From Psammoneis japonica (Eukaryota): a stretch of DNA of 64,000 nucleotides. The notes under the pieces were generated by a model, which had not been told where the DNA came from, searched no databases, and saw only the letters and a program-made list of their open reading frames with translations. Positions within the stretch are counted from its first letter, which is position 1. Every line of letters starts with the position of its first letter. This document shows positions 19,421 to 58,025 of this stretch, one piece after another. A program made the position numbers and the translations under genes. The stretch covers positions 1-64,000 of the forward strand of contig QPGO01000166.1 in assembly GCA_008632985.1 (NCBI GenBank), given 5' to 3'.

Positions 19421-19770
19421 GTACATCACTCCCATACGAGAGAGTCGAGAGCAACAGGCACAATCTACTGCGTGGTAAACGCAAAAAAGACTCTGTCGAA
19501 TTGGTCGCAGCTCTGAATCGTCGCCTCAAACAATGTCAAAGACAAAAAAAAATTGGTCGAGCAGCGCAGGAGAAAGACTACCGTAGTGTTAGACTATTCA
19601 GAAATAAGGATAACCAGTTCTTAACGCATTAATGCTTCATTCTGCAGTGTCTGTATCCTGGATAAACTCAACACCAACCGGCACTAATAGCGCAAGATCG
19701 TCGTACAACCAAAATCACCACTGCTGGTTCGTCTTGTTCAGACGCTTCTCAATATTGACGCATCTACCCA

Positions 19771-25300: not shown

Positions 25301-26667
25301 TGGAGTGAAGCAGCAAACTCTGCCTGATTTGCTCCTGCAGAAGATGTCACAGGCAGCATGGTTTTGAGTTTTTTGTTGATTGCCCCCATGTGTCTTCAAA
25401 GTTTGAGGGGTGCACTGCCAACCCCAGATGACGTCATTCTTGTGCACTGGCACAAGCCTTGTCATGCAACACATTTGACCAGAAAGCATCAGACAGTGTG
25501 TGTTTGACAATCTGGTCCAGAATGAGTCCCCCGGGGCTTTTGCAGGAGGCAGCACTGCACAGAGTTTTGCACAGATTTGAAAGTTGGCCAGCACATGATG
25601 GACCATGGGAGAGAGTTCTTTGAGTCAGCACTTCTGACCAATCTCTCAAAGAAGCTTTGCTCTGGCATCAAGTGGGCCAGGCATGACTTTGGATCCAAAA
25701 GGACAGCTGCTGTCGGCAACAGACCTGCAGCACAAAACCATTGTGACATTGTCTCAACAACTGCAATGGATCTCTGAAATTGTGAATGGATGACAGTGCT
25801 GCACATGCATTGCAGCTTTTAGAGCAATCCCAGGAGGAGACAAAATCTTTCCTTTGTGCTTTGATGGCGCCCTGAGTGAGATGGGTTCAATGGGCACAAA
25901 TGCCACAAAGTCTTGTCCAGAGAGCAATCCTCAAACAAAAAATTGACCTTGATGAGCAAAGAAGAGGATGATGAGGCACTCAACTCTTGTTGCTCCAACT
26001 TGTCAATGTGCATGCCTTGTTGAAGCCTGTCCTTTTGCAGTGTGGCTGATGGAGGCCATTTTTCATTGGAGGGCTTGCAAACTTCTTAGAGAGTCATGCA
26101 CAGAGGCCATGGCAAACCAGAACAATGCTGGGGAGTGTGTTGTTGGCATTCAGTTGTTTCTGGCAAGTGACAAATTCCAGGGGGTTGCCAGGCTAGAATC
26201 AGGTTCAAGTGGCAATTGCACTGCCTGCAAGAAGAGAGCTGCAAGAAAAATGCCAAAATGAGACACAAGATTGTTGCTCTGAGCAATGGATCATCCTGTG
26301 TGTTCTGTGTGGTCTGTGTGCAAAAGTCACATCTGTTGGTGGAAAGTTGAAGTGTCGACATTGAGCAGCTCAGCTGCCTGCTCCTGGCAGCACACCACCT
26401 GCACTCCAAATGCCACCAACTCCAATGATGACTCAAGTGCTGCCTGCTCACCCTGGTGCACACACCCCCGCCACCACCACCCTCTTTGATCTTTGCAAAA
26501 TGAGCTTTGCCCAGATCCACAGTTGGCATCTGTTCATCCTCAGCTTGAACATTCAGTGAGTGCTTTTGCTGCACTTTTGTTTTCTTTGACACATGCCACA
26601 AACTCCAACAACTCAAACAGGAAAGGCCAGCATCACGCACACTCTTGAGTCTGCTGGAAAGAACAAA

Positions 26668-27254
26668 AATTGTGCTGCAAGCAGTCAGCAGCAAGCAGTG
26701 TCTCAATGACAGCAAAATGATGCAAGGCAGGTTCAGCCCACTCTTGGATTTCATCTTGCCTCTCTTTTCAACACACACAACAATGCACAAACCATGAATG
26801 ACAACATGGCAAGATGTGCCTTTGGCACTTCACATTTGTGTTAGACACAGCATCCATTGCGTGGAGCCATTTCAAACAAATTTTGCACTGCATTTTGTGC
26901 TGACATGTGTCCATGAAAAGAGAAGCAAGATGAAATCCAAGAATGTTGTGCTGCAAGCAGTCAGCAGCAAGAAGTGTCTCAATGACAGCAAAATGATGCA
27001 AGGCAGGTTTGGCCCATTCTTGGATTTCATCTTGCCTCAAAAATTGTGCTGCAAGCAGTCAGCAGCAAGCAGCGTCTCAATGACAGCCAAATGATCTTGC
27101 CTCTCTTTTCATGGACACATGTCAGCACAAAATGCAGTGCAAAATTTGTTTGAAATAGCTCAACACAATGGATGCTGTGTCCAACACAAATGTGAAGTGC
27201 CAAAGGCATCTTGCCATGTTGTCATTTGTGGTTTGTGCATTGTTGTGTGTGTTG
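26668..27254. repeat. Composite repeat: three direct copies of a gtgctgcaagcagtcagcagcaag... unit plus an approximately 160-bp inverted repeat (26769-26931 / 27094-27254)
   Basis: Direct alignment by eye; the ORF track shows PLALHICV..HSIHCVE.FQTNFALHFVLTCVHEKR on both strands. Confidence 0.9.
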
Positions 27255-30200
27255 TGCATGTGTGCTGCTGAAACCACTTGTGAGTTTTCCCTTTTTTTGG
27301 AGTCACATGCCTCCTGGCACTTGTCAATGCAGACTCCACTTGGGCTGATTGCCCCATGTGCCAATTTGTGTTTTGCGTCTGCCACATGGACAACAATTTG
27401 ACACAAAAACCATTGATGGATGAGTGCAGGCAATGTGGCAAAACACGGTCTCTCTCTCTCTCTCTCTCTCCTTCAAACGTCTTGCCAAGTTTTAAGTTTG
27501 AGACTTGCAAGTTCTAAAAGTGCCTTTTGTGCATTGAAAACAAGTTTCTGATGTGCGCGAATGTGCCAGAGCCTTTCAACAAAAACAAAAACACAGATCA
27601 CATGGTGGGCATGTGCAGCAATGCATGATGTGCACACACACACAAAGGCACTTGCACATGTCTGTGCATTTCCTGTTTTTGTCAGTGTTTGAGGCAGCAG
27701 TCAGAGAGGGGCCTCACTGACCAGTCATGTGCAGCAGGCATTGCTTGCTCTTTGTTGCCTCCTCTGGATCCTCTGAGGAACAGGAGGGGTGCACCACCAC
27801 AGAAGCAAAGGTCCAATGTGTTCCAGCCTCCTCACATGAGTGCACACACAAAAAAAGACATTTCCACAATTTTTGCACGGTTGCCAACTCACGATTGCTT
27901 TGTTGGGTGGAAAACAATGTCTTCGCTCATTTGCAAAAACCAACAAAACCCACCAAAGTGCACCAAAACAAGCAGTTGCTCTTCATTTCCCACTTTCATT
28001 GTGCCAAGAATTGTGTCACAACACAAGCATTGTTTGTCTCAGGAGCGAAGTTCTGTTTGTCCTTGTGAGCACTCAAGTCAACAAAGTCTTCCAGTCATTC
28101 ACACAGTTGTCCTCTGAGGACCTTCAATGCAACAAATCAGACAGTGAATTTTTTGTGTTGCACAAAAAGTGCTTTTGAACTGGGGACAAAAGTTCTCGTG
28201 CAGTGAGACATGTGGAAACAACTTTGCCGTGCATGGAATTCTCTGTGGGTTGCCACCTGTTTTTTGCACAAGTTGTCGCATTGGTGTGTGGTTGTTTTTG
28301 ACCACTTTCTGTGACTTTGCAGCTGCGCAAGCAGCCCCAACAACCAATTTGAAGTGGGCGCGGTGTGTGTCATGAAGGAAATGGTGAGCTGTGCACTGTG
28401 TGCCAAAATGGACCTGTTGCATTTAAAGGATTTTGAAGGTCTCAATGAACCACCCAAAAGTTGATGCACAAGGTCATCAAAAACAGATCTGTGTGACATG
28501 CAAACAACCACATGATGCAATTTGGATGCAGAGGATTCAATGGTGGCATTTGCATGCACTGAGTGCTTTTGTGATGGGGGTTGGAATGGCCCAAGAAGAG
28601 GGTGCAAAAACTTTGCACTTGAAAGTCACTGAGATCTCCTCAAGTCTGCAGCCATTGCAACAACAAACAAAAGAGAAATGGCACCTGCAGACCAAGTGAA
28701 ATGTGAAAGCTCCAATGGTGTCATTTTTGTTGCCACAAGGCAGGTGGAACAAAGAAAGCAGCCACTGTCATGTGTGCAGCCATGTCATCACTGTGTTGAG
28801 CAACGCTTCAGGAGTTTGAAGAAAATGAATGTTCCCCTGGAGTGTGAACAAGGCATGTTTGATTTTTTCAATGCTGGAGTTCAAGACAATTGTGCCCAAA
28901 AATGTGATTGTCAAACAAATCCATGAACCCATTGTTTTGCATGTCACCAAGCACTGGAGCATGTTGCCAGGCACAGATGCACGTGTTGCACAAGCCTGGT
29001 GCATGCTTGTGCTCATTTTGCAGCTGAGCAGATGTGCAAGTGGCTGTGGTTGTGTGCCAGCCATGCTGCAAAGCCAAAGCCTGCAACACCCCTCTCCCAA
29101 AGCTGTGCTGCCAAGTTGACAAAAGTTGTGAATGCAAAGCTGTGCATTTTGCAGCATTTGCCACCAAGCACTGCAACAAACTTGGGGCAAAACTTTAGAT
29201 TTGACAGTGAAGAAGTTTGCGCACCACATGTGAGCAAGCACACAACATTCACACCAACAGGCACTTCTCCTCAAAATGTGACCAGCTCAGGGTGTGTGTG
29301 AGTCACAGGGAATCATTTGGCACTTTGACCTGGTGAGGGCACACTCAGGTGTGTTGTGTTGGCCCACCTCTGTTGAGGTGCATGCTCTCTTGTCAGCATT
29401 TCTTTTTTTTTCATTTGTTCTCACCTTTGTCATTTGGGTTTCACGTGGATGTTGTCCCATGACCAAATCTTTTGATGTTTTGGATCTTGACTCAAGCGCA
29501 ACAATGGCTGCAACTGTGTGGCATTGTTTTGTTTAAATCCATGATGCAGCTGTGTTTGATTGTCACCAAAGACATTTCCGTTGAGGAATTTTTCAAAAAT
29601 GTCAACAAAAATTTTGCATTTGATGTGTTTTCACATTGGATGTTGACATGCTCAGTTGTCAGGGCAACAAATCCAACTGGTCTGTTGTGTGAAGTGACTT
29701 GCACCGCAATTTGTTTGTCCCTTCTGTGACACTTTCCCGTGCAAATTTTCTTCCTCTCAAGTTTTTCTTGCTTTTGCAAAGTCCAGGCAATGTCAACAGG
29801 AGGATGGGTTCCCACAAATCCACTTGGTCTGTTGCATCAAGCAACTTCCACCACAATTTTTTGTCCTTTCTGCAAGACTTCCACATGAATTTTACCCTGT
29901 GAACTTTTGCTTTCTTTGTTTTGACCAGGGTGAGATTTGTGTGCCCAACAGGCAGGCAAAGAACAGATGCACATGTTGTGGAAAAATCTCTCAAGCACCA
30001 TGATGACTCCCTTTTCACTTGACTCAGTCAGCTCAAAAATGGCAGCACAGAGGAACAAGCATTGTGCCCCTCTTCCAGTGATTCTGAAGAATCCACTGGT
30101 GATGAAAAAAGAGGCCCTTTCTTCCGACCAGTCACAGTGCAGGGAACACAGAAATGCCTCTGGTGGTGACTCTCTTTGCAGACCATGCACATGAGGCAGA

Positions 30201-33200
30201 AAAGACACTTGCATTTCTGTCACTCACACCTGCAGCCACAAACAATTGAAATGTTTTTGAAACTTGGGGGCACAATGGTGCAAAGCAGCGTGACCACAGC
30301 AAGTGCAGGCAAACACACAATGCAAAAACAACAAGGAGTCAGGGCAACTTTGGCTCAGAGACAGATCAATCCAAGTGAGCAGATGGCCAATGATGAAAAG
30401 GTTGGCAGAGACATCAAGGTGAGAGATCATGTCAAAGAAAAGGTGTTTGTGAGCACTGCACTCATGTTTGGCACAAAGCAATTGGACAAAACAGGGCGCT
30501 GCACAAAGACAAGTTTTGCTGCAAGTGTTGGCCTCGCTGGGGCATTGATGTTCAGCAAGATGCAAATCTGACACCAGCAGCTTTGCACCGTTTCCAATTG
30601 TGTGTGGGCATGAAAAGATGAAAGGGCAACTCTCAGCTCTCACAGGTGTTGTGAACCAGCTTGAGAACATTGCCAACAAATGGCTCATGGCAAAGAAGGT
30701 TGTTGCAAAGAAGTGAAAGTGTGCAAGATGACTCAAGTGCTGTGTGGCAAGCAACCAAAGCCCAGCAAAGATGTGTGCAGGAGATGATGCAAGATGCCAA
30801 GGAAAATGGCAGAGGATGGTCACCAAGAGCCAACAAGTTCTCCAAGGAGCCGGTTGTGGAGGTCAAATGAGATGTCAAAAGTGAGTGGCTTTTGTGCAGA
30901 ACAGTTGCAGCCAGCCATGGAAAGCAAGTGGGGGAAAGACTTGACAACTTGGATGATGCGGAAGACCACATGGCAAGCTGCACCAAGATCTGCAAGCTGG
31001 AGTTGACAGTGGTTTGGGAGATGATGACCCATGAGCAGAGATGCTTTCATTGTTCAACATGAAATTCCAAGGCAACTCTGCACCACAGAAGCTGTGCGCC
31101 AGATGGCAACTGTCAAATTGATCATTTTGTGTGTGCACAAACTCAACGAGTTTGGCCATGCTGGCTGGGTTGACAAGTTCTTGATTTGTGCCCATGGAGA
31201 TGTTTGCTGGAAGAAAAGGACACTCACTTGTTTTCAAAACACCCCAATTTGTCACAAATGGGGTGAATTCATGAGGAATCTGACTGATCTGTCAACAAAT
31301 GAATTTGCATGTGTGCACTCACACATGTTTTGTGCAGTCAGTCTGGTCATCTGCGGGTTGGAGGATTCTTAGATTTGGGTCCCTGTGACCCAGAAACAGC
31401 CTTGCGGTTGTCATCAATGACAATCTTTGCAGCTGCCTTTGCTGCTCATTGTTGAACTCAGCACACAAAGCACAGCAACAATGCTCCATCTGCTCAGGAA
31501 CCTGGGCAATGGTCAGCACACAGCAGCAGCCTTGTCAAAAAGCACCACTGTTGCTGCAGCAACAAAGCAGAGGGCTGCTCTCTGTGTTTGCCACTTCAGC
31601 ACCCTGAGAAAAAGGAGCTGTGCAGAAGAAAAGGTCAGCACCAGATGCACAAGCCATGCAACTCTTGCACTGATGAAAATGGTCCCCAACAACATGCAAG
31701 CTGAGTGTGCTGCACATCAGTGCTGGAGTGCATGAAGTGCAGCTGCTCTTCTTGAAAAAAAAACTCCAACAAAGTGTTGCTGCTGGACCAAAGAAAAACA
31801 TGTTCCCCTGTTTGTGTGCAGGCTGTTGGAGGGCAATGCCCCAACTGCACTCAAAGACAAGCTGCAAGACTTGGCCACCAAAGCAAATCAGATCTTCATG
31901 CAGTGTGCAGATGCCATGACAAAACAAAGCAAAGTCTTTCCCAGGAGGGCAGTGCTGCCACACAAGTGCTGCTCAAGGTGTTTTGCACAAAAGCCTGTGA
32001 AAATGAAGACTTGGTGGGAATGTGTCACAAGAGAGCCATTGAGCTGAGCAGCTGTTTGAAGAATTCTCCACCCTTGGTTGAAGATGGGGGTGGCCTGCAA
32101 GATGTGAGGACATGTTGGCAAGCTTGTTTGAGTTTGGTCTGCTGTGAGAAGCCAGCAGCACTGCACGGCTCCACAGGACTTTGACCCACTTGCTCACACA
32201 ACCTTCAACAAGTTTGTCTTATTTTGCAAATGAGTCAAGCCCCGCCAAAGGCAGGCTGCAAAAGGCGCCCAAGGACAAGAAGGCCTCCCTCTCTTCAGGG
32301 CACCTTGGGCTGTCAAAATTGTCCATGAGCTCAAACCCCACAAATTGTGGGGCTGGACAATCATGGAGCAGCATGCTCTCAGTGGTCATGTTTGCTGTGT
32401 GAGCCACAGCATGCCCTGCTGCTTGGGTGCTGTGCAGTGCACCACCCACCATGCTGGCCTGGGTGGGTTCACACTCTGGACACAAAGCAGAAAAAGCTTG
32501 TCTGCACATCAAGAAAAAGAGTTCTGAGTGCAGAGAGTGCCAGCACACAACAGGGCAGCTGATGCTTGTCAAACAGGAGCAAAAAACAAAATGTGGGGCT
32601 GGCTGTCTTGTGTGGGCCCTGCCAAAGGAGTTGCATGCACAAGGGAGACCAGCAGCATGCTGTGCACACAAGATGGTGTGCACTGATGGACACAATGTGC
32701 AGTGCACTGCAGATGGCAACCCATCATCAGCAAGATGCATCTGGCCTGCTTTGCAGCCCTTGTGTCCTGGGTGTCCTGGGGGGGGGGCACCACCATGCAA
32801 GGCACACACAGCACTGGCAACTGGCAGATGCTAGCATGACATGGCCTGTGTGAGATGCAACCTTCTTCACAAAGGTGAGTGTCAGGCACAGACACACCTG
32901 TGCTGCCCAAGCTTGTGCAGCTTGTGAGTGCACATTGGCATGGTTGCTTGCCAGCTGTGAGCAAACCCACATCACTGGATTGTGCACTCAGCTGCTGCCC
33001 CAAAAAGCTCTGCTGAGGGAATGAAGCTTTTCAGTTGTGAGTGGAGAAGCTTGCTCAAATGTGCATGATGTGGCTGCACACAGCTTGTGTGGCTGAAGAA
33101 TGTGTTTCAGCAAAACATGTTTTCTCAGAAGCAGTCTTTTGACTCTGTCATTGGCACTGATCTTCACAGCTGCCTTTTAGGCTCATTGCCAAATTTGGCA

Positions 33201-34153
33201 CATGATGAGGAAATGGCTGCTGCAAAGCAAGCTGGACACAGGCAGTTTTTGAGCACATTGCATTTTTTGTTCATTTCTTCCATCATTGCTTGTTTTAGTG
33301 GAAACAGGCGCTGCTCTGCATTTTGAGATGCTCTGGCAAAAAGAGATGTGAAGTCCTGGTGCACAAGAACTTTCCAAAGATGCACCACAAAAGATGTTTC
33401 AAAAGCCCAGCTTGCTGCAATTTTGTGCACACTCCTCCCTCTGCACCTTGTCCCCTCTCTTGCCACCACCCCAGTGTGGTGCAGTGGGTCAACAGACACA
33501 AAGCTTGCCTTGTTGCTTCAAACATTCAAGCTTCTGAGTTGCTTGCCAGAGAGAAAACAAAGCTTTTTCCTCAATGTTCCACAACAACACAAGGAGGCCA
33601 AGGGCTGTCTAATGTGTGGTTGACAGATCTGACACAGCAGCAGCAGCAGCAGCAGCCTTGTGAAGATCTGGCATTTCAGCTGGTTTCAGCACAAGGTGCT
33701 GATTGTGAGATGTGCTGTGCTTGTCAGATGGGGCAGCAAACTTGCCCCCCCATGGTGCACACCACATGTGGCAAAATCCTGCTTGTTGTTTCATGAAACC
33801 TTTCTCTGCATTTTGAGTGCAATGTTTTTTGTGGTGGGGTGTTGCCTGATGGCAAGCTGCAAGGGAAAAAATGGCAAGACTCAGCAAACTTCTTCTGAGA
33901 ACCACACTTCCAAAAAGTTGCCTTCACCCAGCCACTCTCTCACTGGGTCATGTTCTGGAGCATGAGGCATCATGTGCACTTTTGAGTGTGCCACATTGGA
34001 AAAGCAGCTTTGCAAGTCTTGAGAAGCCACCAACACCTTCCCATGGGCCACCCAAGAGAGAGAGAGAGAGAGAGAGTTTGCCAATTTTGTTTGTTTGGGG
34101 TCACGGTTGAAGGGAATCAAGCCCGCCAGCAACAGATCAACCAAAGAGGACAA

Positions 34154-35030
34154 ATTTAGCGCTGAAATGACTCAGTGGAAAAAAACATTTTTGACACACA
34201 CAAAATGTGTGTCCACACAAAAACATCATGCACAAGCACCCGGATGCACATTTTTGAAAGTGTCACAACCCAGAGGCCATGTGGGATCACACCAGCGACA
34301 CACATGTGACAAAAAACCCGGATGCACATTTTGTCAAATGTGTGGGACATTTTGAAAAATGTGCACCCTGGCAAAATTTTGCACATGTAGAATTTGCACT
34401 GGAAGTCTCGCAGATGAGGACTGGCCAAACGCACTTGTCAAGTCCAGGTTTTGCACCCCAAAATGTGCTGAAACTGGCTGTGTGTTTGCCAGGCAGATGC
34501 AGCACTGATCTGTGACATGACAGCCTCCCTCCAACACTGCGCACCGTCTTCACACTGACACAAGCTTCAACAACTGTGCCGCACAAATCCAATGCCCACA
34601 GCCAGATCCTGTGCTGCGCTCTTGAGATCCTCCTGTGTGAGTGACTAGACAGCATGCACACTGTCACTTGCTTGAGCAGGTGACAGCTGCAAATGCATGC
34701 AACAGTGAGCCAAATGGCTGTCACTTGTTTCCAGTTGCTTCTGTGCAGTTGCTGGCTCATCATGAGTGCATTGCAACATTTTGGTGTGATGCCACACAGA
34801 ATTTCCTGGTGCATTTCTACACAACACTGGTGCACTTTTGTGCATTCAGTGCAAAATGAGCTCCAAAAACTGAAAAATGCCCCCCATGCATTCAGCCAGT
34901 CCTTGCTTGCAGACATGTTTTACACACCCGGATGCACATTTTGAAAGCTGTGTCACACATAAAAAGTTGTGTTGCAAGGTGTGCAAAAAATGCGCGAGCT
35001 CACCACATGGAAAAAATGCACATGTGGCTG
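34154..35030. repeat. MITE-like or subterminal repeat region with recurring cccggatgcacatttt motif
   Basis: Motif at about 34239, 34317 and 34927, with tgtcaca/aaaatgtg submotifs; ends not defined. Confidence 0.5.
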
Positions 35031-38000
35031 CACAGCTGGCAGTGCAATGGTTGCAGGGGCTTGAGTCACAGGAGCTTGTGTCCCTTCCCATGCCTGGCTT
35101 TTCCTGCAGAGCTGCAAGACAAAGATCACCTTCCCAGCTGCTGTGTGGCTGTGTGTGCCAACAGAGGAAACAACATGTGCAGCTGAGCACAGCCACAAAG
35201 GCAAGCCACAGTTGGAAAATGCAAACAAGAGTTGATGTTGCTGGCTGAATTTTGGGCTTGTGTCAAAACTGCATGAGAAGAGACTTGGAGTGCCAAGATC
35301 TCTGGGGCAGAGTCTCAAACCTTTTGTTGCTCAGTGCAGCAGCACATGCCTGCAGTGCTGCCAAAAGCACCACAGAGTGCTGGGGCTGTCAAGGCCAAGC
35401 AAAAAACTGCAAGAGACAACACACATGTCATGTGGGGGCAGAGGGTGGCAGAGGCAATCTGAGAAGGGAAAAAGGGCTGCTGAGGGGAGCAACCAAGAAT
35501 CTTGCTGTGTGTTGCAATCACCAGGTTGAGGGCAAATGAAGATCACAGGGCTTGGCAGGCCTTTTTGTGGCTGGCATCACAACAGGCTGGCAAGTTTGTG
35601 TGCTGTGAGCAGGTTGTGTTGCAGTTCTCAGCACTTTTTTTACTTTTCTCATGCTTGATCTGATGTGTCTGCCAACATGGGCTCTCTGTGAGCCATTGGA
35701 GGGTGTGGGATGCAAGAGGTGGGCAAAACAGGCAGTGCCAGCTGAGCTTGTTTGCCTCAGAAGTTTTTGCTTTTCTCAAGCTGCAGATCAACCTGAGCTC
35801 CTGTTTGGGTGCTTTTTGAAATTGCCAAACACACTCAGGAGATGCTGAGCCCAGCAGAAGTGCCGCTGGCAAGAAAGGAGGCCTGCAGCAAGAAGAAGGT
35901 TGTGTCGCACCATGCCATCTCTTTTGACTTCTGCCAAATTGTTTCCACATGGCAGCTCTGATGTTCCAGTTGGTTTGCATTGTTGAGTGATTTGTGTCAA
36001 AAAATCTGATGTGCTGGCAGCACAGGAAAAAGAAGACAAGCCCACCAGCCACTTGTCAAGATTTTTGTCTGTGGGCTGTGTGCGAAAGTGTGCCCCCCCC
36101 CCCCCCTCTGAGCAAAGGCAATTTGCAAAAAGAAGGTGAAAACCAGCAAGAACAGTGAAGCTTCAAGAAAAAAAGCTCTGCATCAAAAATCTGGGGCAGA
36201 AACAACAGAGCATTTTGACCAGTGTGCACAACTTGTTGTGCATTGAGAAAAGTGCCACGCATCTCTTTCCTCTGCCCTTGCTCCACAACCCAGGCAGGCA
36301 AAACAAGCACTGGCTTCAACAAGAGACAAGTGGCTGGCTGGGCGACACTTTCATTCACAAGGCCCAAAGGCTCTCTAAAAGCCACAATCTGTGAGAACAC
36401 CTGCAACTTTGTCAGATGATGTGAGCTGCAACACATGACTTGCCTTGAGTTGCTGAAAATGCCCAGAGTTTGGGCAATTCATGAAAGCAAAAAAAAACTG
36501 TGGGACATCTCCAATGAGCACCAGCCATTGTGCTTGACAGCACTTTGGGTGGGGGGGGTGGGCTGCCACATCCAACTGAAAGATGGGGCTGAGCTGTGTC
36601 ATGGCTGTTTGGCCCCACAAGGTTCTCAGGGTTTGTGTGCAGACCCTGAAAAATGAGGCCCAATGGGCATGCAATGTGGGCACTGTCAAATGGGCAAATT
36701 GATTGGAGTGGGCAGCTCTTTTGTTTGTCACTCCCAAAAAGGACCAGACAGCACAGCTCCTTTGTTTGTCATTTCCAAAAAGGGCCAGACAGCACAGCTT
36801 GTCAATGGTTTTTACAAGCTGAGCAAAGTGATGAAGTGAGTGCCAAGTGTCGTCTGACCCCACATTTGCAGCACAATTTTGTCTTGGAAAAAGCACAAGG
36901 TGTGGTTGTTGCTGATGGGCTCATGTGTGCATGTCTCAGGAGGAAACATTGGGTCCATTCCAGGATTTTGTGTGTGTGCTCATGTGCAGGCAAACAGACA
37001 ACCTTCAAATTTTGATTGGGTGCACACAAAATGCAAAAAACTCAATGCTGTTGAGCACTTGCACATCTGCGTTTTGACAAACCATTTGAGGAGGAGCATG
37101 ACATCACACCCAAATGGCAACTTTGAGCAGCAATGTTGTGGGGCAGTTGACACTGGCATCCTTTTGCAACAGCAAAAAGCTTGGCATTGCCCAGCCAAGT
37201 TGCACAATGATGGAAACAGAATTGCCAGCCATTGTGGAGGCACTGAAGGAGCTCAGGTTCACTCATCTTGGGCAGCAGACAGTTGTGGATTCTTGTCATG
37301 AAAACCTCACACACAAAGCACCCAACACCACCAAACTTGTCATGTGTGCTGGTGGCTGACATGTGCAAAAGTGTGTGGGCCCAAATCATGACATGTCAAT
37401 CAAAGATGACCATCACAATTTGGTTGCTGATGCACCAAGTTGCCTCAATCTCAGTTTGTGCTGGAAACAGCAAATGATCCAAAGGCCCTGGAAATGCCAG
37501 AGAAGTGCACCCTCTGCATGAAGGTTTCCTGGCAGAAGTGAGAAAGATGCGTCAACAACCCCCACCAGCTGTGAGAAAATTCAAGCCAAACAGCAAAGGG
37601 CAAGTGCCTGCCACAAAAGCCTGCTGCATGGGCTTTTCATGAGGTGGCTCACTGAAAAAAAGCAGGCAAAAGACAAAGTCATTGTCCCAGCATTGCCACA
37701 AAAGAAGCAGATGGCTGGCCTGGCTGGCATCATTTTCAGTGGTGCCATCCTGGAGATGCTTGCACAGAAACATCTGTTGCCCCCAACATCTCCACTGGTG
37801 CAGTGTGTGAGCTGCAGCAAGATCTGTGTGCTCCAAGCAAAAAGCACTCCAGAAGAGCCAAAAGACAAAATCTCAAATGGAGGGAGTTGGCAGCAAAGAG
37901 GCAGCTCTGAAGTTGTCCTGTGGGAGAGACCCAGTGCATGGGCATGACACCAGGGGGGCACACCATCCAGCAAAAAGAAAAAGAAACCACTGCATTTGTG

Positions 38001-39559
38001 GGTGGTCAGGATGGTTGGTCTGGCAGCAACTGGGTGGCCAAAAACTGCCACAAAGTGTTGGTGCAAAAAGCACTGACATTGCTCATCTGATGTCATCAAG
38101 CAAGCCTGATCATGCAGGTGTCCATGGCTGAGAAAGGTTGTCTTCCACAGAAAATGGCTGTGGACTTAAAAAGAAACTGGGAGCACCAAATGTGCAACCC
38201 ACGCACAAGCTTCACAGTGGAGCATGCACACCAGATGGATTGGGAGTGTGCGAAGCAATCATTTTCAATCTGGTGTGTGGAGCTGGACAAGGACAAGAAC
38301 CCACAAAGCAACAGCATGCTCTGGTCATGTTTGCCATGCAGGCCATGGCCCACACTGCCACTGCTTGAGCAAGCCCAGCAAAGAGCTGGTGTTTGGCAAA
38401 GATGTCAGCATGTTCTTGAGTGTTGCCAGCTGTGCTGGCTGGAAGCACACACTCAGGAGAGAAGCAAAAGCTTGCTTGCACAAACAACAAGAGAGAGAAA
38501 ATTCCAAGCACAGAGAGGAAAGCCAATGTGCCACAGGGCACCAGCTGGCACTTGTCTGACAGGGACAAAGACAGAAAGTGGTGCTGAGTTTCTCATGCAG
38601 ACCCTGCCATTCATGTGCACACATGTGGTGGTGTGGCGGTGTGCTGATCGATGCATTGCACAATGACCCACAGCAGCAGATGGCACTGTGAGCCACACTC
38701 TTTGTCATGGGATGGAAAATTTGAGTCCCCCCCATGATGATGCCATGCATGTGGAAGAAATCCTGCTTGCTTCGCTGGATTTTTTTCATGATGGCAGGTC
38801 AAACACACCACAGAGTGGCATGTCTCTGTGCAGAGTGTGAGCAGCAACACATTTTGGGTGCCCACATTGGAGAGCCCAGCTCTTTGCCAAGACTGCCCTG
38901 GTGCTGTGTCCAAAAACAATCTCAGGGGAAGAGTCTCCAATCTTGTTGCAGCTGGCACAGCTGCACAAGTCAGCAGCACTGCCAAAGGTGCTGCACTGGG
39001 GCAGCCAGCTGTGCTGAGTGCCAAGCAAAATGCAAAAGACAGCACATGCATCATGCAGAGCCAGAGGCCAGTGGAGGCAATCTGAGAAGGGAAAAAGGGC
39101 TGCTGTTGGCAGCAACCAGGAGTCTTGCTTTTTGCTCCAATGTGGCAGGCCCACTTGCAGTTGGTGTGATGGCAGGTCATGAACAAATCTGCAAGCCAAG
39201 TGTTGGTCAAACTGCAACTCTTCTCAACCCTCTTTTCTTCCAGGAGAGGAGAACAAGAGAGGCAAGTTGGCTTGGTGTCATGCTTGTCACTCTCTGAAAG
39301 CCGCAATCCATGAGAACACCTGGGACTTTGTCAGATGTGAACCACAGCTGCAGCAGCTGGGAAACAGGCCAATCGTCCTTCGGCCAGGCCCACAGCAGGC
39401 CCACAGCACAGGCCCACCTGTTGGGGGGTGGGGTGTCACGTGTCACACACACTCTCTGCTCTCTAGAGTGGCCAGAGCTGGCTGGAGTAGAGAGTCTGCC
39501 GCACACACTGCACATGTGGCCCCAAACTGTTGACTGTTTCTAATTGCTCTACCTCACAG

Positions 39560-41669
39560 AGGGAGTTGCACTCTCAAGCGTTGTTGTCACCCACTGCTGC
39601 AGCTGCAACGGCAGGCTCAGCAGCCCCTCCATCGGCACCCACACCAGACTGGTGACACTCCTCCAGCTGAGCATCAATCCTGGCTTGAAACTTGGCTGTT
39701 TCCTTGCGACATTGCTCCAACTCCTCACTGCTCATGTCATTGAGATCAGCATCTGCATCTTCAACAAAGACAGGTGAGGAGGGGACAAAGAAGCCCAGGC
39801 AGTTCACAACACATTTTGCTGGACCCTCAATCCCTTCAGTGCCCTTGGTCGTCTTTGTGTTTGGGATGGGACCATGCTGCTCCATCCATGCATGTGGAGA
39901 CTTGTGCCCTCTGGCGGCATTTTCCAGAGGCCCATGAAGAAGGGGTGGCAAGCACAGTTGCTCAGGTCCATGACATGCAAGACACATGGGACATCAGATC
40001 TGTGTTTCAACATGCACTTGCAGCAATTGTGCGAAGAAAGATGCAGCTTGTTGTGGATGTCTGCAATGGACAAGGCATCCCAGCAGTGGTCACCCCTGTT
40101 TCGTCAAACAAGAATGAACACTGCACAAGTGGGAGATCAAATCAATGAGCTGGCGCAAAGCAATGGAGACTTGCTCGTCACACAGGAGGCACTTGCTCAA
40201 CTCAATCACAATGTCAGCAATCCAGACTTGTCGCTTGCAGCATTCCAAATTGGCCAAGTGCGTGGTCACAGATGCTTTGATGCGCTCGCACCTCGCCTCG
40301 ACACTTTCGAAAGCTTCTGTGGCCCGCTCCATTTCATCCCGGGCAGCGCACAGTGAGCACTCAACGTTGATCACCTCCTTGAAATTTTTGTCTCATGACT
40401 CCTCACTGTTCACTTTGACTGCTTCCCACCTGATCTTGTTGATCTCAAGGTTGTCGATGTTCTGCACCAGGTTGTTCCTTCCAATGCACATCAGTGCACT
40501 GGGGCAAGGGTCCTTGGCAATCTCCTTGACAAGGTCAGTGCAAATGGGAACCCGAGCCCCATCTTTCAGCATCAAGACCTTCTTGCACTCGTTGGATGCC
40601 TCGACCCTGCTCACGTCAAGATGGTCCCCTTTCTTCTGCAGATGCTTCAAAGCCAACTTGTCCTTGGTCATGCCAAGTGCTGACACGGCGGACGACACCA
40701 TGCCCCTTGTCACATCAGCAACAACAACTCTGTCCTCTGCACCATTGAGGCCTGTGGAGGAGCCACCTCCTGATGTTCTTTGTTCCAGCATTGGCGGATC
40801 CAGCGTGTTGGCGGCGGAATCAGGCACCGAAGCAACATCGGAGAATGAAAGCAACGCGGCTCCGTCAACAGAGGCGGCAAGTCATGACTGAGAAAGGAAG
40901 GATGAGGTGCCAACAGAAGTGCCGGCGCGTCATGACAGAAAGAGGAAGGATGAGGGGCTGAGCTGGTGGGTTGCTGCTGGTGAGCTCATGGCGTTGGTTT
41001 TTGTCCTTTTGGAGCACTCAACGTTGATCACCTCCTTGAAATTTTTGTCACATGACTCCTCACTGTTCGCTTTGACTGCTTCCCACCTGATCTTGTTGAT
41101 CTCAAGGTCGTCGATGTTCTGCACCAGGTTGTTCCTTCCAATGCACATCAGTGCACTGGGGCGAGGGTCCTTGGCAATCTCCTTGACAAGGTCAGTGCAA
41201 ATGGGGACCCGAGCCCCATCTTTCAGCATCAAGACCTTCTCGCACTCATTGGATGCCTCAATCCTGCTCACGTCAAGATGATCCCCTTTCTTCTGCAGAT
41301 GCTTCAAAGCCAACTTGTCCTTGGTCATGCCGAGTGCTGACACGGCGGGCGACACCGCGCCCCTTGTCACATCAGCAACAACAACTCTGTCCTCTGCACC
41401 ATTGAGGCCTGTGGAGGAGCCACCTCCTGATGTTCTTTGTTCCAGCATTGGCGGATCCAGCGTGTTGGCGGTGGAATCAGGCACCGAAGCGACATCGGAG
41501 AATGAAAGCGACGCGGCTCCGTCAACAGAGGCGGCAAGTCGTGGCTGAGAAAGGAAGGATGAGGCACCAACAGAAGTGCCGGCGCATCATGACAGAAAGA
41601 GGAAGGATGAGGGGCTGAGCTGGTGGGTTGCTGCTGGTGAGCTCATGGCGTTGGTTTTTGTCCTTTTGT
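39560..41669 (-). pseudogene. TpA-edited gene relic of unknown function with its 5' part tandemly duplicated
   Basis: ORFs 40930..41484, 40393..40854, 40090..40374 and 39574..39987 read as a natural globular/coiled-coil protein but have no Tyr, with His/Cys at plausible Tyr sites (LKHLQKKGDHLD, VPICTDL, EESCDKNF). Confidence 0.6.
40355..41669. repeat. Tandem duplication, 2 x 657 bp
   Basis: gagcactcaacgttgatc at 40355 and 41012; copies differ at about 22 positions. Confidence 0.95.
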
Positions 41670-41797
41670 TGGAGCACATGGTGGCAGTGTGCAGTGTTTG
41701 TATTCAGTGATCGGCGGCATCGCTCGAGGAGAAAATGAGCCGCGCGAGAATTTTGGGAGAGACATGATGCCATGGTGTGACGGCCCGCCGTCGTACA

Positions 41798-52567: not shown

Positions 52568-53814
52568 CTATTTCTTCACGATCAATTCTACTACTCGACT
52601 AGCAGCGACGAATCCAAAGGTTCCTGTGACGAAACATGCCGTGCCATATGCGCCATCGCAAAGTCGCAGCGCAGATTCTCTACCTGCTCCATTTGGCGGC
52701 GCTTTGGTGGTCTCTGTAGAATATATTGCATTGATGCCCCACTTCTTTGGCTTCGTGCGATTCTTTTTTTGAACAGAAAGTGCCACCCCTTTCTCAAACC
52801 CGTATCTTTGTCGCAAGTTCTTTCTGACGGTACCCAAAAGACGATCCCCGCTCACTCGAGTCATGTCGTCCCAGACTACCTTTGTCGGATCTGTCCTACC
52901 AGCTGAACCTCCACAAACAACAATAGGGATATTCCGAGCAACGCATGCAGCGATGAGTGCCGTCTTTTCTTTGCTTCCGTCAATCGCATCAAGGCACATG
53001 GTTAGTTCAGGTACCAGACAATCCATAATCTCGTCTACATTGTCAGTGGTGACCTAAATTCGTCACAGCAAAATTAGAATACAGAGGAACGCAAGGGACG
53101 GAAACAAAATTTCGAAAGATAGTTTGTGCCAGGAAACAGCGGTCCGATCAGAAGTACTGGGGAGGTCAAAACTTACAAAGTCAAAAATAGTCGTCACGTT
53201 GCAATTCGGGTTGATGTCGATGAGCCTCCTTTCCATCGCTTCAGTTTTAAGCTGGCCTACAGTGGATGACTTTGCGTGCAGTTGACGATTTGTGTTTGAA
53301 ATACAAATGTCATCCATATCAATAAGTACGATATTTCCCACTCCTGACCGACAAAGTGCTTCCGCTGCCCAAGATCCCACTCCGCCGATCCCAACCACCG
53401 CCACCGTAGCACGAGTAAGTCGATCAATGACCGCGAGTTGATTATCGGTAACCACTGATTCTTGTTTCGCGGCACTGTCTTCTTGTGTATAAAGTCTAAA
53501 AAAAAGGGAACAGAATCATATGAATCTGAGGCCCAAAGCTTCAGCAGCACCCAACATGAAAACAAAAGATGTGTCGCTCACCTCCCGACACCCCCAAAAC
53601 GCAAGAACCGCTCGTCGACATCTACAATTGGCGGATCATCCAGGGGTAGACTTGCTGGATCAATATTATTCACATCAGAAGAAGAAACGAATAATACTGT
53701 GCTTCGTTCAAGATGTGAGTGCGTTTCTTTCGGGGATATCGAAGTCAGCGGTAGTGCAGGTGCTACGACTACAAGAGCCAGAAGCAGCGTCACCTTAGTA
53801 TTTTGTACATGCAT
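52568..53814 (-). CDS. tcdA: ThiF-family tRNA threonylcarbamoyladenosine dehydratase (TcdA/CsdL-like); introns 53495-53581 and 53054-53176
   Basis: RFGGVGRLY, VVGIGGVGSWAAEALCRSGVG, DMDDICISNTNRQLHA, GGSAGRTDPT, GTACFVTGTFGF. Confidence 0.88.
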
Positions 53815-54199
53815 TCTTCTTCTTTTGAGATCCACAGTTGCAAAAACGCGAGGAGTCTCTGTTGCGACATTCACCTGGGGAACGTTGAACGAATAATGTA
53901 CCGGTATCATAGGGTCTTTTTTTTCTTTTTGAAGGTCAAATGGCTTGAACAAAGCTTTGACAAAGAAACTTGGCAGTTATATTATTACTCTCTACTTAGA
54001 GTTTGCGTTGGCCTGCACCAGAGATGTATAACATCTATATATTAACATATGTGGTACAAAGTAACTTGGGTTCAAAACTGCAATTTTGAACCCAAGCAGT
54101 GTTTCCCGAATGTGCATTTTGGTCGGACCAAATTGGCATTTTGGTCGAACCAAAACACTTTTGTCGACCAAATTGCCAGACCGACCAAATCGGTCTGAG

Positions 54200-55102
54200 A
54201 CGCTTTCTGGAATGACATGTCTCCGACCCGAGGTGAAGCGACACTGACGCACGCAACTGGAGCGGGAATCGAGGTGTCGCCATTGAGCAGCTCAGCCGCA
54301 ACTTCCATGGCAAATGAGTTGCCAATGCTCCTCCCAGCGAATGTCCCGAACAATGCAGCTTGTGAGTCTTGAATCTGTCATCCTGCTGGAAGAGCTCCTT
54401 GACATGGGTGGGGATTTCGTCGCACTTGTTTTCGCTCCCTCGGAGGCGCCTCTTGAGAAGATGCTCGTCAAACCCATGATGCAACCCCATCTTGCTGTCC
54501 TGTCCCTTGACATCCTTCAAAGGATTGTCCCGCTTGCCAAAGGAGATGGAAGCATCACAGACAAAGTCTGCCGGTGTGACTGAACCTCGGAAACAAACTG
54601 CAACTCGTTTGCGTGCTGGATCGACTCCAACCACGTGCACAAGTTCCTCATCTGGATCATCATCGCCACATTTTGCAATGTGCGCTGGCTCAAGGTTCTT
54701 CTCCTTCCATGGGTTTGACCACTTTTGTGAAGAAGAATGACGTTGGTGTCTTTCTTGGATTGCTTTCAGAGCACTCATTGCCATTTCGTGGTCTGAATCC
54801 CCCAGAGCTTTCTCAATTTCCTCCAAATTGTCATGAATCACCGCCAAGGCTGTTTCGAGCGTGAGTGGCAGCTCCAAGATCTGCTCAGGGTCCTTGTTGA
54901 GTTTGGTGTCCTCTTGTTTGCATGTGCTTCTCAAGTCTGCAATGGCGCAAATCAACAGAGCCGCGCCAAGCATCTCGTCCGCCTCTTCATGCAAGTTTGG
55001 ACAAGCACACGAGTCCCAGTTGAAGGACGCCTTGGCCTGCCCCGATGTGTTGTCTTTGGCATTGCCAACCCCGCACAGCTTCACGAAGGAGTCCAACACC
55101 AT
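54200..55102 (-). pseudogene. Class 3 lipase pseudogene, TpA-edited, frameshifted and 3'-truncated
   Basis: VAVCFRGSVT, GHSLGGALAT, SVASPRVGD motifs; zero Tyr; frameshift near 54315; ends abruptly at the subterminal repeats. Confidence 0.88.
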
Positions 55103-55849
55103 GGTGAGAACGAGTTCCAGAACTGCGGCGGCTGGAAAAAACTGCGCCTGCGCTGGGCAGAGAGCGAAAAAAGCCAAACGAACAAGAAGATTTGGCGACC
55201 TCGTGCGTCGAGACCTCGAACTGTCAAACGGCTTTCTTTTCATGCAGACAGGCAGACATGCAAGGAATGCGGAATTGCCGTACATTCTTGATGATGATGC
55301 GTCATGCGGGCGGCGTTCATTGCAACACAAGACGTGGGGCTGCGTGCTGGGAAAGATTTTCCTCTCTCTAGATTTTCCCGGCGATGGTGGATGGCGGCAC
55401 ACTGTGCTGGCACAATGATGAAGACACTTCCTGCCAGAGAAGCACCACGCTGCACTGGCACAGACACCTCCTCAATGACTCCTCGGGAGGATGCGGCCAA
55501 CCCCGCTGGGCTCTTGGCGATGAACCCAGAGAGACAGCCCTGCCGCTGCCTCGTGGTTCTCTTGATGTGCAATTGGCGTGATGTCTCTCCAAGCTTCCCC
55601 CTGCATCATGTGCGATTGTGAAGGACTTGGGAGGCAAACAAGATTCTCTTCATGTTGTGCAATGGACTCGAAGCTGTCAAAAGAGAGAAAGCATCAAGCT
55701 TGCAGCACCAATGCTCATGTGCACCATGCTGACAAGACACATCTTTGTTTCTGCCCAGCCCGCATCAACTTTGAGATGAGCACCAAATGTGGGGTTCAAT
55801 GGGGAAAGCCTCCCACGCTGTCTCTTTCAAGCTCAGTGCACTCTTTTGA

Positions 55850-56830
55850 TGCCGCAAAAGAGCCCAGCACCATGCTGGTGGTAAAACACAATTTCAGTGT
55901 CATGAGAAGGCAGTGTCAATGCTGCCAGTTTTCCAAATTTGTCAGGATGTGAGTTGGAGGAGGAAGGCTTGAACACGAGCTCAACAAGAGCTGAGTTTGC
56001 AGAGCAAGAAATGGCGGCACTCTCAGTCATGCCAGACACAGCAGTGGCCATTTCCTGCTTGCAGGTGGGGAGGCTTTCCGCAATGGCTTGCTCAGTGGCT
56101 TCGTTGGTGGCGGCAGGAAAAACATGGATTTCCTCAACACGGGTCTGGATGACAAAACGAGCAAGATTCTGAGCGCAACATTTGAGCCAAGGCTCTGTCG
56201 ACTTGTTGAAGAAGACAGCATTGCCACTGGAGTGTGGAACAATCAAAAGAACCTCTTGAACAGTCAGGGTCAGATCAAGTTGAAATGTGCCGACTTGTTC
56301 ATTGTCGAAAAGCTTCTTCGAAATCGACTTCAAAGCAACAAAAGCCGAGAATGCGGCGGTGTCAACATTGCTGCCGATTGAAGCAATGCCACAGGCAAGG
56401 ATGGCAGCAAAGAGAACAACAAAGATCATGAAGGAGATCGACATGGTTGATGCTTGATGCCAACAACAAAAGACGAGTTGTCCGTTTTGTGAGATGGAGT
56501 GCGAAAGCGGAAAGCGTGGAGCCAAGATTCGCGTGCTGGCGGCTGCGTGGTTTCTGTGCAGTTCCGACCAGAGATCACAAATAAACTGGGACACGTTTTT
56601 CTTCTGTTGTCAAAACCTGACCAAAACACCGTTTGGCGTTCCTCGGCGCCAATCTCAATGTCGTTTCGGAGACTCATGACGTGATCAACTGTTGCGATGC
56701 CGACAGGTGATGATTTGAACTGCTGCCACAACAACTCAGTCCAAACGTTCTCGGTGTCATTGCCCAACAAATAGCCAGCAAAAGACTCTTTCATCAAACT
56801 TTTCATTATGTTCCTGTTTGTTTTGCTTAA
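55850..56830 (-). pseudogene. Gene relic(s) of unknown function in the TpA-depleted zone
   Basis: Protein-like ORFs 55833..56594 (signal-like MSISFMIFVVLFAAILA) and 56426..56836, nearly Tyr-free; coding strand uncertain. Confidence 0.35.
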
Positions 56831-57121: not shown

Positions 57122-57993
57122 CTATCTGTCCAACTCAGCCAAGTTGAGCTTGGAAGCTCCCTTTGGAAGAAGCTCGGTGCCCTGCGGGGCAGGCTCAACA
57201 TGCTCATCAAAGATCCACTCCTCGCGATCGTCCGTATCCGAACCCTGGGCCCTGAGGCGACGGCGGAGCGCTTTCTCGGCCTCCATGATCAAAAAGACGG
57301 AAACCGCCATCAAAATGGTAATACCCCACTGGGTTCCGTCCATACCGGACATGCCAAAGATGGTGTCGTTCAAACCGGGGGTGTAGGTTGTGAAGAGCTG
57401 GAGCACAATGACAATAATGGCGGAATACCACAGAGACATGTTGCCCTTGAAAATACGCGGTAATTCCGTTTCCAGTGAATACGCTTGTAGCTTGTAGCTG
57501 TGGTTGTTCTTGATAGTACTGAAAGAGATCCGCAATTCCGCAGCATGCTCGGGTATGTTGTATTCCGCCTCGAGTAAGGCATTCATCGACGACAGCACAT
57601 ACGGAAGGGATTGTACGTATCCGGTCAATTGTCTTGCCAAGTCGTCTGGAGTATTTTTAATCTCGTTTTTCATTGGTGACTGTTTCGGTGTATTCAACAG
57701 GTCGTCGTCATGAAAGGACCAATTGTCATTATCGTTGTTATGTTGTGTAGGGCCCTAGTCGCAGTATCGTTTTGTTTCTCAGAAGGTGTTGTAGGTTGAT
57801 AACTGCTGCTTCTGCTTTGATTGTTATTCTCGGTCAAGAGACTGTCGTCATCAAACGACCATGCATCGTCGTCGTCGTCGCCATTGTTGTCGTTATTGGT
57901 GGAAAGCAAGTCATCTACGTCATCGTCCCATCCGTCTTGGACGAGATCGTCTGTGGACGACGCCATGGTGTTTTTTGTGTTGTGTGTCGCCAT
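57122..57993 (-). pseudogene. Chimeric fragment: N-terminus of an acidic hypothetical protein fused to the C-terminal about 110 aa of a P-type cation ATPase
   Basis: IFKGNMSLWYSAIIVIVLQLFTTYTPGLNDTIFGMSGMDGTQW...IMEAEKALRR matches the Cation_ATPase_C tail; no phosphorylation or nucleotide-binding domains upstream; frameshift near 57740. Confidence 0.65.
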
Positions 57994-58025
57994 CCTCTCT
58001 GCAGCTCTCCACTCTCCAAGGCACA

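What the first reader, a model, noticed from the sequence alone, without database searches (positions are those of the whole stretch)
54100..56770. TpA loss is decoupled from, and apparently faster than, CpG decay
Seen: block 3 has only about 4 TAs (near 55281, 55369, 55882 and 56582) but keeps abundant CpG (for example tcgtgcgtcg, ggcggcgttc) and readable frames. The 40.3-41.7 kb duplication also has zero TA with many CpGs, whereas blocks 1 and 2 have lost both. Inference: these are stages of one process in which TpA is removed first and almost completely, and CpG erodes later. That argues for an active, near-saturating mechanism rather than a by-product of slow methyl-CpG decay.
Basis: partly seen in the sequence, partly recalled or inferred. 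Interest (0 to 1): 0.85.

Follow-up and report, generated by a model that had tools for sequence, protein, structure and literature searches.

The report
TA erased long before CG decays
In this diatom DNA, a silent copy of a lipase gene has had every TA step rewritten to TG or CA while nearly all its CG steps are still intact, which shows that a fast, TA-specific mutation process strikes silenced DNA first and that the familiar slow decay of CG follows much later.

Summary
Observation confirmed. Block 3 (54063-56581) has 3 TA where about 89 are expected, yet 113 CG (o/e 0.68). The block at 39551-41700 has 0 TA and CG o/e about 0.55. Blocks 1 and 2a lack both.

Contigs of a public run from the same organism hold a second, TA-bearing copy of the block-3 lipase segment, at the same depth as single-copy flank. 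Of the 27 listed differences in 452 bp:
- 21 are TA in the other copy against CA or TG in the window;
- 3 are CG lost in the window;
- 2 are CG present only in the window;
- 1 is another A-to-G change;
- none is a transversion.

So TA loss is complete (21 of 21) at essentially zero background divergence, with 21 of 24 CG kept.

In the 40.3-41.7 kb tandem duplication, 14 of 22 differences are CG against CA/TG and none involves TA. TA was therefore gone before the duplication, and CG decayed afterwards. An old LTR-like pair in block 2a has 16 transversions and has lost both dinucleotides.

The reading is supported, but as two co-located processes, not one. The scan had already found TA erasure elsewhere in this genome. 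In print I found only one 2026 preprint, on Bigelowiella natans.

The parts
54063..56581 (.). Block 3: TA-erased island that keeps its CG (3 TA, 113 CG, GC 51.5% against 47.7% in background)
54200..55117 (-). Truncated copy of a diatom class-3 lipase gene, with TA erased. This is the stretch on which the second, TA-bearing copy lies (a 933-nt contig with 62 differences). Homology to that copy stops at about 54200.
   Evidence: Pfam Lipase_3 in two frames. Diatom relatives up to 55-58% identical. 7 of 7 conserved Tyr columns read Cys or His. Contigs and differences.
54231..54682 (.). The 452 bp with the typed before/after differences: 21 TA to CA/TG, 3 CG lost, 2 CG only in the window, 1 other A-to-G, 0 transversions
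54317..54317 (.). Apparent frameshift of the lipase frame. All 3 contigs that cover it, including the run's version of the window's own copy, carry one more G, so this is probably an assembly indel and not a lesion.
   Evidence: table 4; frames
54097..54191 (.). Copy of a high-copy element (depth 1300-2000 against about 60) inside the left edge of block 3. At 54156 most other copies read T (giving TA) where the window has CA.
   Evidence: tables 2, 3, 7
54065..54096 (.). 32-nt hairpin palindrome exactly at the left border of the TA-free block
   Evidence: I3
55836..56609 (-). Open frame of 258 aa in block 3 with no detectable relative
39551..41700 (.). Block 2b: 2150 bp without any TA. CG is kept at o/e 0.5-0.6 from 40000 onward.
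40355..41017 (.). Tandem duplication, copy 1 (23 CG)
41012..41677 (.). Tandem duplication, copy 2 (29 CG). The 22 mismatches to copy 1 are 14 CG against CA/TG, 1 CA against TG, 5 other transitions and 1 transversion.
22887..39550 (.). Block 2a: old island that has lost both TA (o/e 0.03) and CG (o/e 0.11)
35298..35518 (+). Left member of an old direct-repeat (LTR-like) pair. Against 38919-39141 it has 46 mismatches: 9 CA-versus-TG doubles, 12 other transitions and 16 transversions.
38919..39141 (+). Right member of that pair
37102..37356 (+). Weak RT_RNaseH relic between the pair (E 1e-4, below Pfam's cut-off)
16526..19421 (.). Block 1: island that has lost both TA (o/e 0.06) and CG (o/e 0.09)
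53066..53976 (-). Untouched flanking gene (ThiF family, spliced), with normal TA and CG
   Evidence: spliced contigs table 5
57125..57754 (-). Untouched flanking gene end (cation ATPase C-terminus)

Best explanation
Two different mutation processes act on the same silent, repeat-derived DNA of this diatom, at very different speeds.

The first changes A:T to G:C almost only at TpA. It acts on either strand, so TA becomes TG or CA. It runs to near completion while ordinary divergence is still about zero.

The second is the usual C:G to T:A decay at CpG, probably by way of 5-methylcytosine. By the point estimate it is about 25 times slower, and at least about 5 times slower.

This yields a time series. 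Young targets (block 3, block 2b) are TA-free but keep their CG. Old targets (blocks 1 and 2a) have lost both.

Block 3 is a truncated copy of an expressed lipase gene, together with multi-copy DNA. Only this copy is hit; the TA-bearing copy elsewhere is not.

Shown here: the direction, context, completeness, strand symmetry, sharp borders and order of events. Inferred: that the agent is an enzyme, most likely an adenine deaminase acting on DNA and guided by chromatin state or small RNA, and that the CpG decay reflects methylation.
For: Direction and context. A second copy lies on 54200-55117 at depth 60-63, equal to the single-copy flank (60.9) and to the window's own version (59.4). Of 27 listed differences in 54231-54682, 21 are TA in that copy against CA (10) or TG (11) in the window. 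These are interleaved: 13 runs against 11.5 +/- 2.2 expected. No TA site became CG. The second copy's codons restore the residues conserved in 18 diatom lipases; 7 of 7 conserved Tyr columns are Cys or His in the window. A third, more distant contig shares the TA letter at 10 of these sites.

CG. The window has 23 CG in that stretch and the other copy 24. Three were lost in the window against 0 C:G to T:A changes elsewhere in the stretch.

Order of events. The tandem copies in block 2b differ at 14 CG-type sites, 0 TA-type sites and 1 CA-versus-TG site. If erasure had come after the duplication, about 11 discordant sites would be expected (P 5e-6).

Old state. The LTR-like pair in block 2a has 16 transversions and 9 CA-versus-TG sites, and has neither TA nor CG left.

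State space. No 500-bp window of the 128 is CG-poor with normal TA, while 6 are TA-poor with CG kept.

GC content. GC rises as the model predicts: block 3 is 51.5% against 47.7% in background.

Precedent. TpA-only A:T to G:C hypermutation at about 6e-7 per site per generation was measured in Bigelowiella natans (Results section read).
Against: Only 40 of 298 difference rows were shown. The typed spectrum covers 27 of the 62 differences of the main contig, and a few rows inside the 452 bp may be hidden. The run comes from the same sample as, or one close to, the assembly, so it is not independent of the window. The locus of the second copy was not seen. I call it a paralogue, not an allele, on the strength of depth alone. 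No methylation data exist here, so 'CG kept because the block is young' cannot be fully separated from 'CG kept because it is little methylated'. The ages of blocks 1 and 2a rest on one repeat pair. Two CG sites are present only in the window copy, and their direction is open. No enzyme was identified.
Confidence: 0.8

Rival explanations
1. The CG content of the TA-free blocks reflects methylation state and not age. On this view blocks 3 and 2b are simply unmethylated or weakly methylated targets, so the blocks are not stages in time.
For: Block 3 derives from a gene, and its CG level (23) is essentially that of the source copy (24). In diatoms, methylation is concentrated on transposons (PMC9998398, abstract and passages). 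No methylome is available for this window.
Against: Block 3 is young by an independent clock: 0 transversions in 452 bp. It already shows 3 CG losses against 0 other C:G to T:A changes. In block 2b, 14 of 22 differences since the duplication are at CG, so its CG is actively decaying. The one dated old pair has lost both dinucleotides.
Confidence: 0.15
2. One enzyme does both jobs: a deaminase that edits A in TpA and, less well, C in CpG, so that there is truly a single process.
For: Both changes end in CA/TG and share the same territory: 41 of 47 TA-low windows are also CG-low. The Bigelowiella preprint cites ADAT2-type enzymes reported to deaminate both A and C in DNA.
Against: The edited base is the 3' base of TpA but the 5' base of CpG. 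Spontaneous decay of methyl-CpG is enough to explain the CG loss. The Bigelowiella experiment saw 230 of 231 hypermutations as A:T to G:C (210 of 211 in the giant-virus region, 20 of 20 in the virophage region), all of these at TpA, and no CpG component.
Confidence: 0.07
3. The TA-free sequence is not a mutation product. It would instead be native composition of foreign DNA, selection against TA, RNA editing followed by retro-copying, GC-biased gene conversion, or a base-calling artefact at a modified base.
For: The assembly carries small indel errors (for example at 54317), so it was probably built from error-prone reads. ADAR-type editing prefers a U before the edited A (stated in the preprint's discussion).
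Against: A TA-bearing copy and the TA-free copy both occur in the run's contigs at equal depth, and the run's own contigs reproduce the TA-free version with 1-2 differences. Conserved tyrosines are replaced 7 of 7 times. Both strands are hit equally and in an interleaved way, which does not fit editing of one RNA strand. 21 of 24 A:T to G:C changes fall on TpA, which makes up only about a fifth of the A/T bases, so this is not general GC-biased conversion.
Confidence: 0.03

Closest known systems
TpA-restricted hypermutation of integrated giant-virus and virophage DNA in Bigelowiella natans (Mettrop et al., bioRxiv 10.64898/2026.01.13.699255; abstract, Results and some Discussion passages read)
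   Same: Changes are almost only A to G or T to C. They fall on TpA and give TpG or CpA depending on the strand. They are confined to local blocks of silent non-host DNA, run orders of magnitude above baseline, and the enzyme is unknown.
   Different: There, TpA is only partly depleted (Rho 0.45 in the giant-virus region, and the virophage region is even TpA-rich). Here it is near zero (o/e 0.02). Here an endogenous gene copy and transposon relics are the targets. The organism is a diatom, not a chlorarachniophyte. The preprint never mentions CpG (0 occurrences), whereas here the relation to CpG decay is measured.
Repeat-induced point mutation (RIP) of Neurospora and other ascomycetes (properties recalled; mentioned in PMC9998398 and in the preprint's discussion)
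   Same: Context-specific transitions act in place on duplicated DNA, run towards saturation and disable the copies.
   Different: RIP turns C to T, mainly at CpA, and so creates TpA. This process destroys TpA. RIP hits both copies of a duplication, whereas here the second copy keeps its TA.
Methyl-CpG decay in silenced transposons; diatom transposon methylation maintained by DNMT5a (PMC9998398, abstract and passages)
   Same: It explains the CG to TG/CA component: 14 of 22 differences between the tandem copies, and CG o/e about 0.1 in blocks 1 and 2a.
   Different: It does not touch TpA, and it is several-fold to tens-of-fold slower than the TA erasure measured here.
Deaminase editing of retroelements by ADAR or APOBEC (PMC4866542 seen in a search listing only; properties recalled)
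   Same: Directional transitions with a neighbour-base preference that disable mobile elements.
   Different: Those enzymes act on RNA or single-stranded DNA and leave strand-coordinated clusters. Here the hits on the two strands are equal (10 and 11) and interleaved, and they arose in place.

Membership tests
TpA-specific A:T to G:C hypermutation (Bigelowiella type) | Mutations are almost exclusively A to G or T to C | tested here: met
   24 of 27 listed differences are A:T to G:C in the window copy. The other 3 are CG losses, and there are no transversions.
TpA-specific A:T to G:C hypermutation (Bigelowiella type) | The mutated base lies in a TpA dinucleotide | tested here: met
   21 of the 24 A:T to G:C differences fall on TpA, and 21 of 21 TpA sites of the other copy are changed.
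TpA-specific A:T to G:C hypermutation (Bigelowiella type) | Confined to bounded blocks while neighbouring host genes are spared | tested here: met
   TA density is normal up to 54062 and again from about 56800. Every TA-free gap longer than 200 bp lies in or beside the three blocks.
TpA-specific A:T to G:C hypermutation (Bigelowiella type) | New mutations arise at a measurable, elevated rate in culture, and episodically | not testable with these tools
   This needs mutation-accumulation lines. Only a lower bound of about 2e-7 per TpA per generation was inferred, using a rate borrowed from another diatom.
Repeat-induced point mutation (RIP) | C to T at CpA, so that TpA rises | tested here: not met
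   TpA falls to o/e 0.02-0.06 and CpA/TpG rise.
Repeat-induced point mutation (RIP) | Both copies of a duplication are mutated | tested here: not met
   The second lipase copy keeps TA at all 21 typed sites.
Methyl-CpG decay | Excess of CG to TG/CA transitions over other changes | tested here: met
   14 of 22 differences between the tandem copies. 3 CG losses against 0 other C:G to T:A changes in block 3. CG o/e 0.09-0.11 in blocks 1 and 2a.
Methyl-CpG decay | The cytosines are methylated | not testable with these tools
   No methylation data were available.

The most novel reading that the evidence does not exclude
Diatoms and chlorarachniophytes share an old, enzyme-driven genome defence that rewrites TpA in silenced duplicated, mobile or foreign DNA. 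It destroys every tyrosine codon and every TA-containing signal within a time too short for ordinary mutations to appear. It acts on one copy of a duplication only, presumably the silent one. Methyl-CpG decay is a separate and much slower second layer. The TA-free/CG-rich, then TA-free/CG-poor series would then serve as a built-in clock for dating silencing events.
Probability: 0.4. Interest if true: 0.9.

Novelty: new variant of a known kind. Interest (0 to 1): 0.75.

Why it matters
It measures the rate hierarchy within one locus. TA erasure is complete at about zero neutral divergence, while CG is 88% intact. This rules out TA loss as a side effect of CpG decay or of general drift, and points to a dedicated, targeted A:T to G:C mutator in a second eukaryotic lineage. 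It also supplies a before/after gene pair and a simple two-dinucleotide clock. With these the process becomes testable by mutation-accumulation lines, methylomes and knock-outs of candidate deaminases.

Tried and rejected
Three dated points within the window were used instead.
- The protein of the second lipase copy was not found in the protein collection. The best hits were 55-58% identical.
- The block 2b frame 40930-41586 had no relative among 1.84 billion representatives. The block 3 frame 55836-56609 had none either.
- Pfam on 240 stop-to-stop frames, of which 98 of at least 130 aa came from the whole window and 142 of 75-129 aa from the blocks, gave inside the blocks only Lipase_3 (twice) and one sub-threshold RT_RNaseH hit.
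- In the RNA-like run X2, only TA-bearing versions cover 54200-55117, and parts of block 3 have no cover. Absence of cover is not evidence of silence.
- I tried to tell from the hit strand whether the base two before or one after the edited A matters. The result was 5 against 5 in the informative contexts, so it is inconclusive.
- A terminal-inverted-repeat-like pair at the block 3 borders (54111-54127 and 56563-56579) is only 76% complementary, so I did not rely on it.
- Look-ups in the scan's notes by place (near) and by sequence returned nothing.
- Five literature searches found no description of TA erasure in diatoms. The only hit was the Bigelowiella preprint.

Full report
**What is in the sequence.** The window is 48% GC. 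Its background TA o/e is 0.60 and its CG o/e is 1.00. Housekeeping genes of a eukaryote fill the background, and the lipase relatives are diatom proteins. Three blocks stand out.
- Block 1 (16526-19421): 10 TA (o/e 0.06), CG o/e 0.09.
- Block 2 (22887-41700): the first 17 kb (2a) have 33 TA (o/e 0.03) and CG o/e 0.11. The last part (2b, 39551-41700) has no TA at all, with CG o/e about 0.55 from 40000 onward.
- Block 3 (54063-56581): TA only at 55281, 55369 and 55882, that is 3 against 89 expected (P 3e-34), with 113 CG (o/e 0.68).

CA and TG are enriched in all blocks. GC is raised where only TA is gone: 51.5% in block 3 and 53.3% in 40000-41700, against 47.7% in background.

Of 128 windows of 500 bp, 80 are normal for both dinucleotides, 41 are low in both, and 6 are TA-low with CG kept. 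None is CG-low with normal TA, and 1 has normal TA with middling CG.

**What block 3 is.** Its minus strand carries a class-3 lipase relative (Pfam Lipase_3 in two frames), with diatom homologues up to 55-58% identical. In an alignment with 18 of the 63 hits, all 7 columns where tyrosine is conserved read Cys (3) or His (4) in the window. All 7 conserved arginines are kept.

Homology stops at about 54200, so the last third of the enzyme is missing. The apparent frameshift at 54317 is probably an assembly indel, because all 3 contigs covering that place carry one more G (table 4).

The left edge holds a copy of a high-copy element (54097-54191, depth 1300-2000 against about 60). The right part (56.2-57.5 kb) is also multi-copy (table 2).

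**The before/after pair.** One search for public runs found three runs of one sample. Laid on 53000-58000, their contigs show two versions of 54200 onward. One is the window's own (for example 54162-54453 with 2 differences, depth 59.4). The other is a second version (54200-54453 with 14 differences, depth 60.3; and a 933-nt contig on 54200-55117 with 62 differences, depth 63).

The single-copy flank has depth 60.9, so I read the second version as a paralogue and not an allele. This is an inference from depth alone. Run X2 also holds contigs that skip two intervals with GT..AG-type ends in the flanking ThiF gene, so it behaves like RNA. It carries the second version.

One search showed only 40 of 298 difference rows.
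- 21 have TA in the second copy against CA (10) or TG (11) in the window;
- 3 have CG in the second copy against CA/TG in the window (54380, 54575, 54633);
- 2 have CG in the window only (54263, 54635; direction open);
- 1 is an A-to-G change at ApA (54604);
- none is a transversion.

The second copy's codons give back the residues conserved in the family, including five tyrosines. A third, more distant contig shares the TA letter at 10 of the sites. So TA is ancestral and the window copy is the derived one.

The two outcomes are interleaved (13 runs against 11.5 +/- 2.2 expected), and no TA became CG. The window has 23 CG in this stretch and the other copy 24. The CG level of block 3 is therefore essentially the native level of the gene, and at least 21 of its 23 CG in this stretch are retained rather than newly made.

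**Relative speed.** TA is lost at 21 of 21 sites and CG at 3 of 24 (Fisher p 7e-10). With 0 of 21 surviving, the 95% upper bound on TA survival is 13%. The CG loss has a 95% interval of 3-32%. Treating both as simple decay, TA erasure is at least about 5 times faster than CG decay. It is about 25 times faster by the point estimates, using 3 of about 89 TA surviving in the whole block.

At most 3 changes lie outside the TpA and CpG sites of the other copy, among about 360 such positions. Borrowing the rate of Phaeodactylum tricornutum (4.77e-10 per site per generation; abstract and passages of PMC6604790), the copies are at most roughly 9 million generations apart. That gives at least about 2e-7 erasures per TpA per generation. 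This is an inference with a borrowed rate. It is of the same order as the 6-9e-7 measured in Bigelowiella natans.

**Order of events in block 2b.** The tandem copies (40355-41017 and 41012-41677, 96.2% identical) differ at 22 positions: 14 CG against CA/TG, 1 CA against TG, 5 other transitions and 1 transversion. None involves TA. In block 3, each TA goes to CA or TG about equally. If erasure had followed the duplication, about 11 of about 22 ancestral TA sites should now be discordant. At most 1 is (P 5e-6). So TA was gone before the duplication, and CG has been decaying since.

**The old state.** In block 2a a direct-repeat pair (35298-35518 and 38919-39141) flanks a weak RT_RNaseH relic. 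It has 16 transversions, 12 other transitions, 20 gap columns and 9 CA-versus-TG double differences, and it has lost both TA and CG. About 10 discordant sites are expected if all its TA and CG were resolved independently after insertion.

The three dated points therefore line up as follows:
- 0 transversions in 452 bp: TA gone, CG 88% kept.
- 1 transversion in 663 bp: TA gone, and each copy keeps 70% or 88% of the 33 CG sites seen in either copy.
- 16 transversions in about 212 aligned columns: both dinucleotides gone.

**Interpretation.** TA loss is decoupled from CG decay and is much faster. It is a directional, context-specific process and not a by-product of CpG decay. I would rephrase 'one process' as two processes of different chemistry sharing one territory.

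The main rival is that CG level reflects methylation state and not age. It cannot be fully excluded without a methylome. However, block 3 is young by an independent clock, and CG is already the only place where C:G to T:A changes are seen.

The other rivals do not fit the evidence. These are native composition, selection, retro-copying of edited RNA, GC-biased conversion and base-calling artefact. Against them stand the equal-depth pair of versions, the tyrosine replacements, the strand symmetry and the restriction to TpA.

**Comparison with what is known.** The closest match is the 2026 preprint on Bigelowiella natans, of which I read the abstract, the whole Results and some Discussion passages. 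It reports TpA-only A:T to G:C hypermutation of integrated viral DNA. The present case differs in four ways:
- it is saturated;
- it hits an endogenous gene copy and transposon relics;
- it is in a diatom;
- it is set against CpG decay, which that preprint does not mention.

It runs opposite to fungal RIP and fails two of RIP's defining features.

Five full-text searches found no description in diatoms.

The scan's own earlier notes had already reported TA erasure many times on other pieces of this genome. These include notes that CG is 'mostly untouched' in a young MITE pair and that a 'separate, slower decay' affects CG. This report agrees with them and adds a measured pair from this window.

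Noticed in passing
all three blocks (16526-19421, 22887-41700, 54063-56581): The few TA that survive are mostly in a pyrimidine-TA-purine context (CTAA/TTAG, TTAA, CTAG): 31 of 46, against 291 of 1611 background TA (Fisher p 8e-13). Only 22% of the blocks' CA/TG sit in that context. Purine-TA-pyrimidine sites are almost fully erased (1 survivor). This hints at a wider sequence preference of the mutator, and suggests that the survivors are not simply TA regenerated by later mutation.
   Followed up: partly
54097-54191: A high-copy element (depth 20-35 times single-copy) built of TTGGTCGACCAA-like palindromic repeats. Many different flanks join it at 54097, 54154 and 54191 (table 7).
   Followed up: partly
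54065-54096 and 58458-58485: A 32-nt perfect-stem hairpin sits exactly at the left border of block 3. A 28-nt identical copy lies in inverted orientation 4.4 kb away, in normal-composition DNA.
   Followed up: no
54317: The window lacks a G that all 3 contigs from the runs carry, and other 1-3 bp indels against the contigs are listed at 56432-57010. The assembly seems to contain small indel errors, so frameshifts in this genome should be checked before calling pseudogenes (table 4).
   Followed up: partly
40355-41677: Four of the 5 non-CpG transitions between the tandem copies are GA against GG. Their direction is unknown.
   Followed up: no
26769-26931 and 27094-27254: A young inverted duplication (94.5% identical) inside old block 2a still shows 2 TA-versus-CA/TG differences. 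Either erasure continues in old blocks, or new TA arise there.
   Followed up: no
41798-41998: A TA- and CG-rich tandem repeat starts within about 100 bp of the right border of block 2, which itself lies 24 bp after the end of the tandem duplication.
   Followed up: no
55128-55219: One contig of the run skips 90 bp here and carries 16 other letters instead, so another copy has a different arrangement upstream of the lipase homology (tables 5 and 5c).
   Followed up: no
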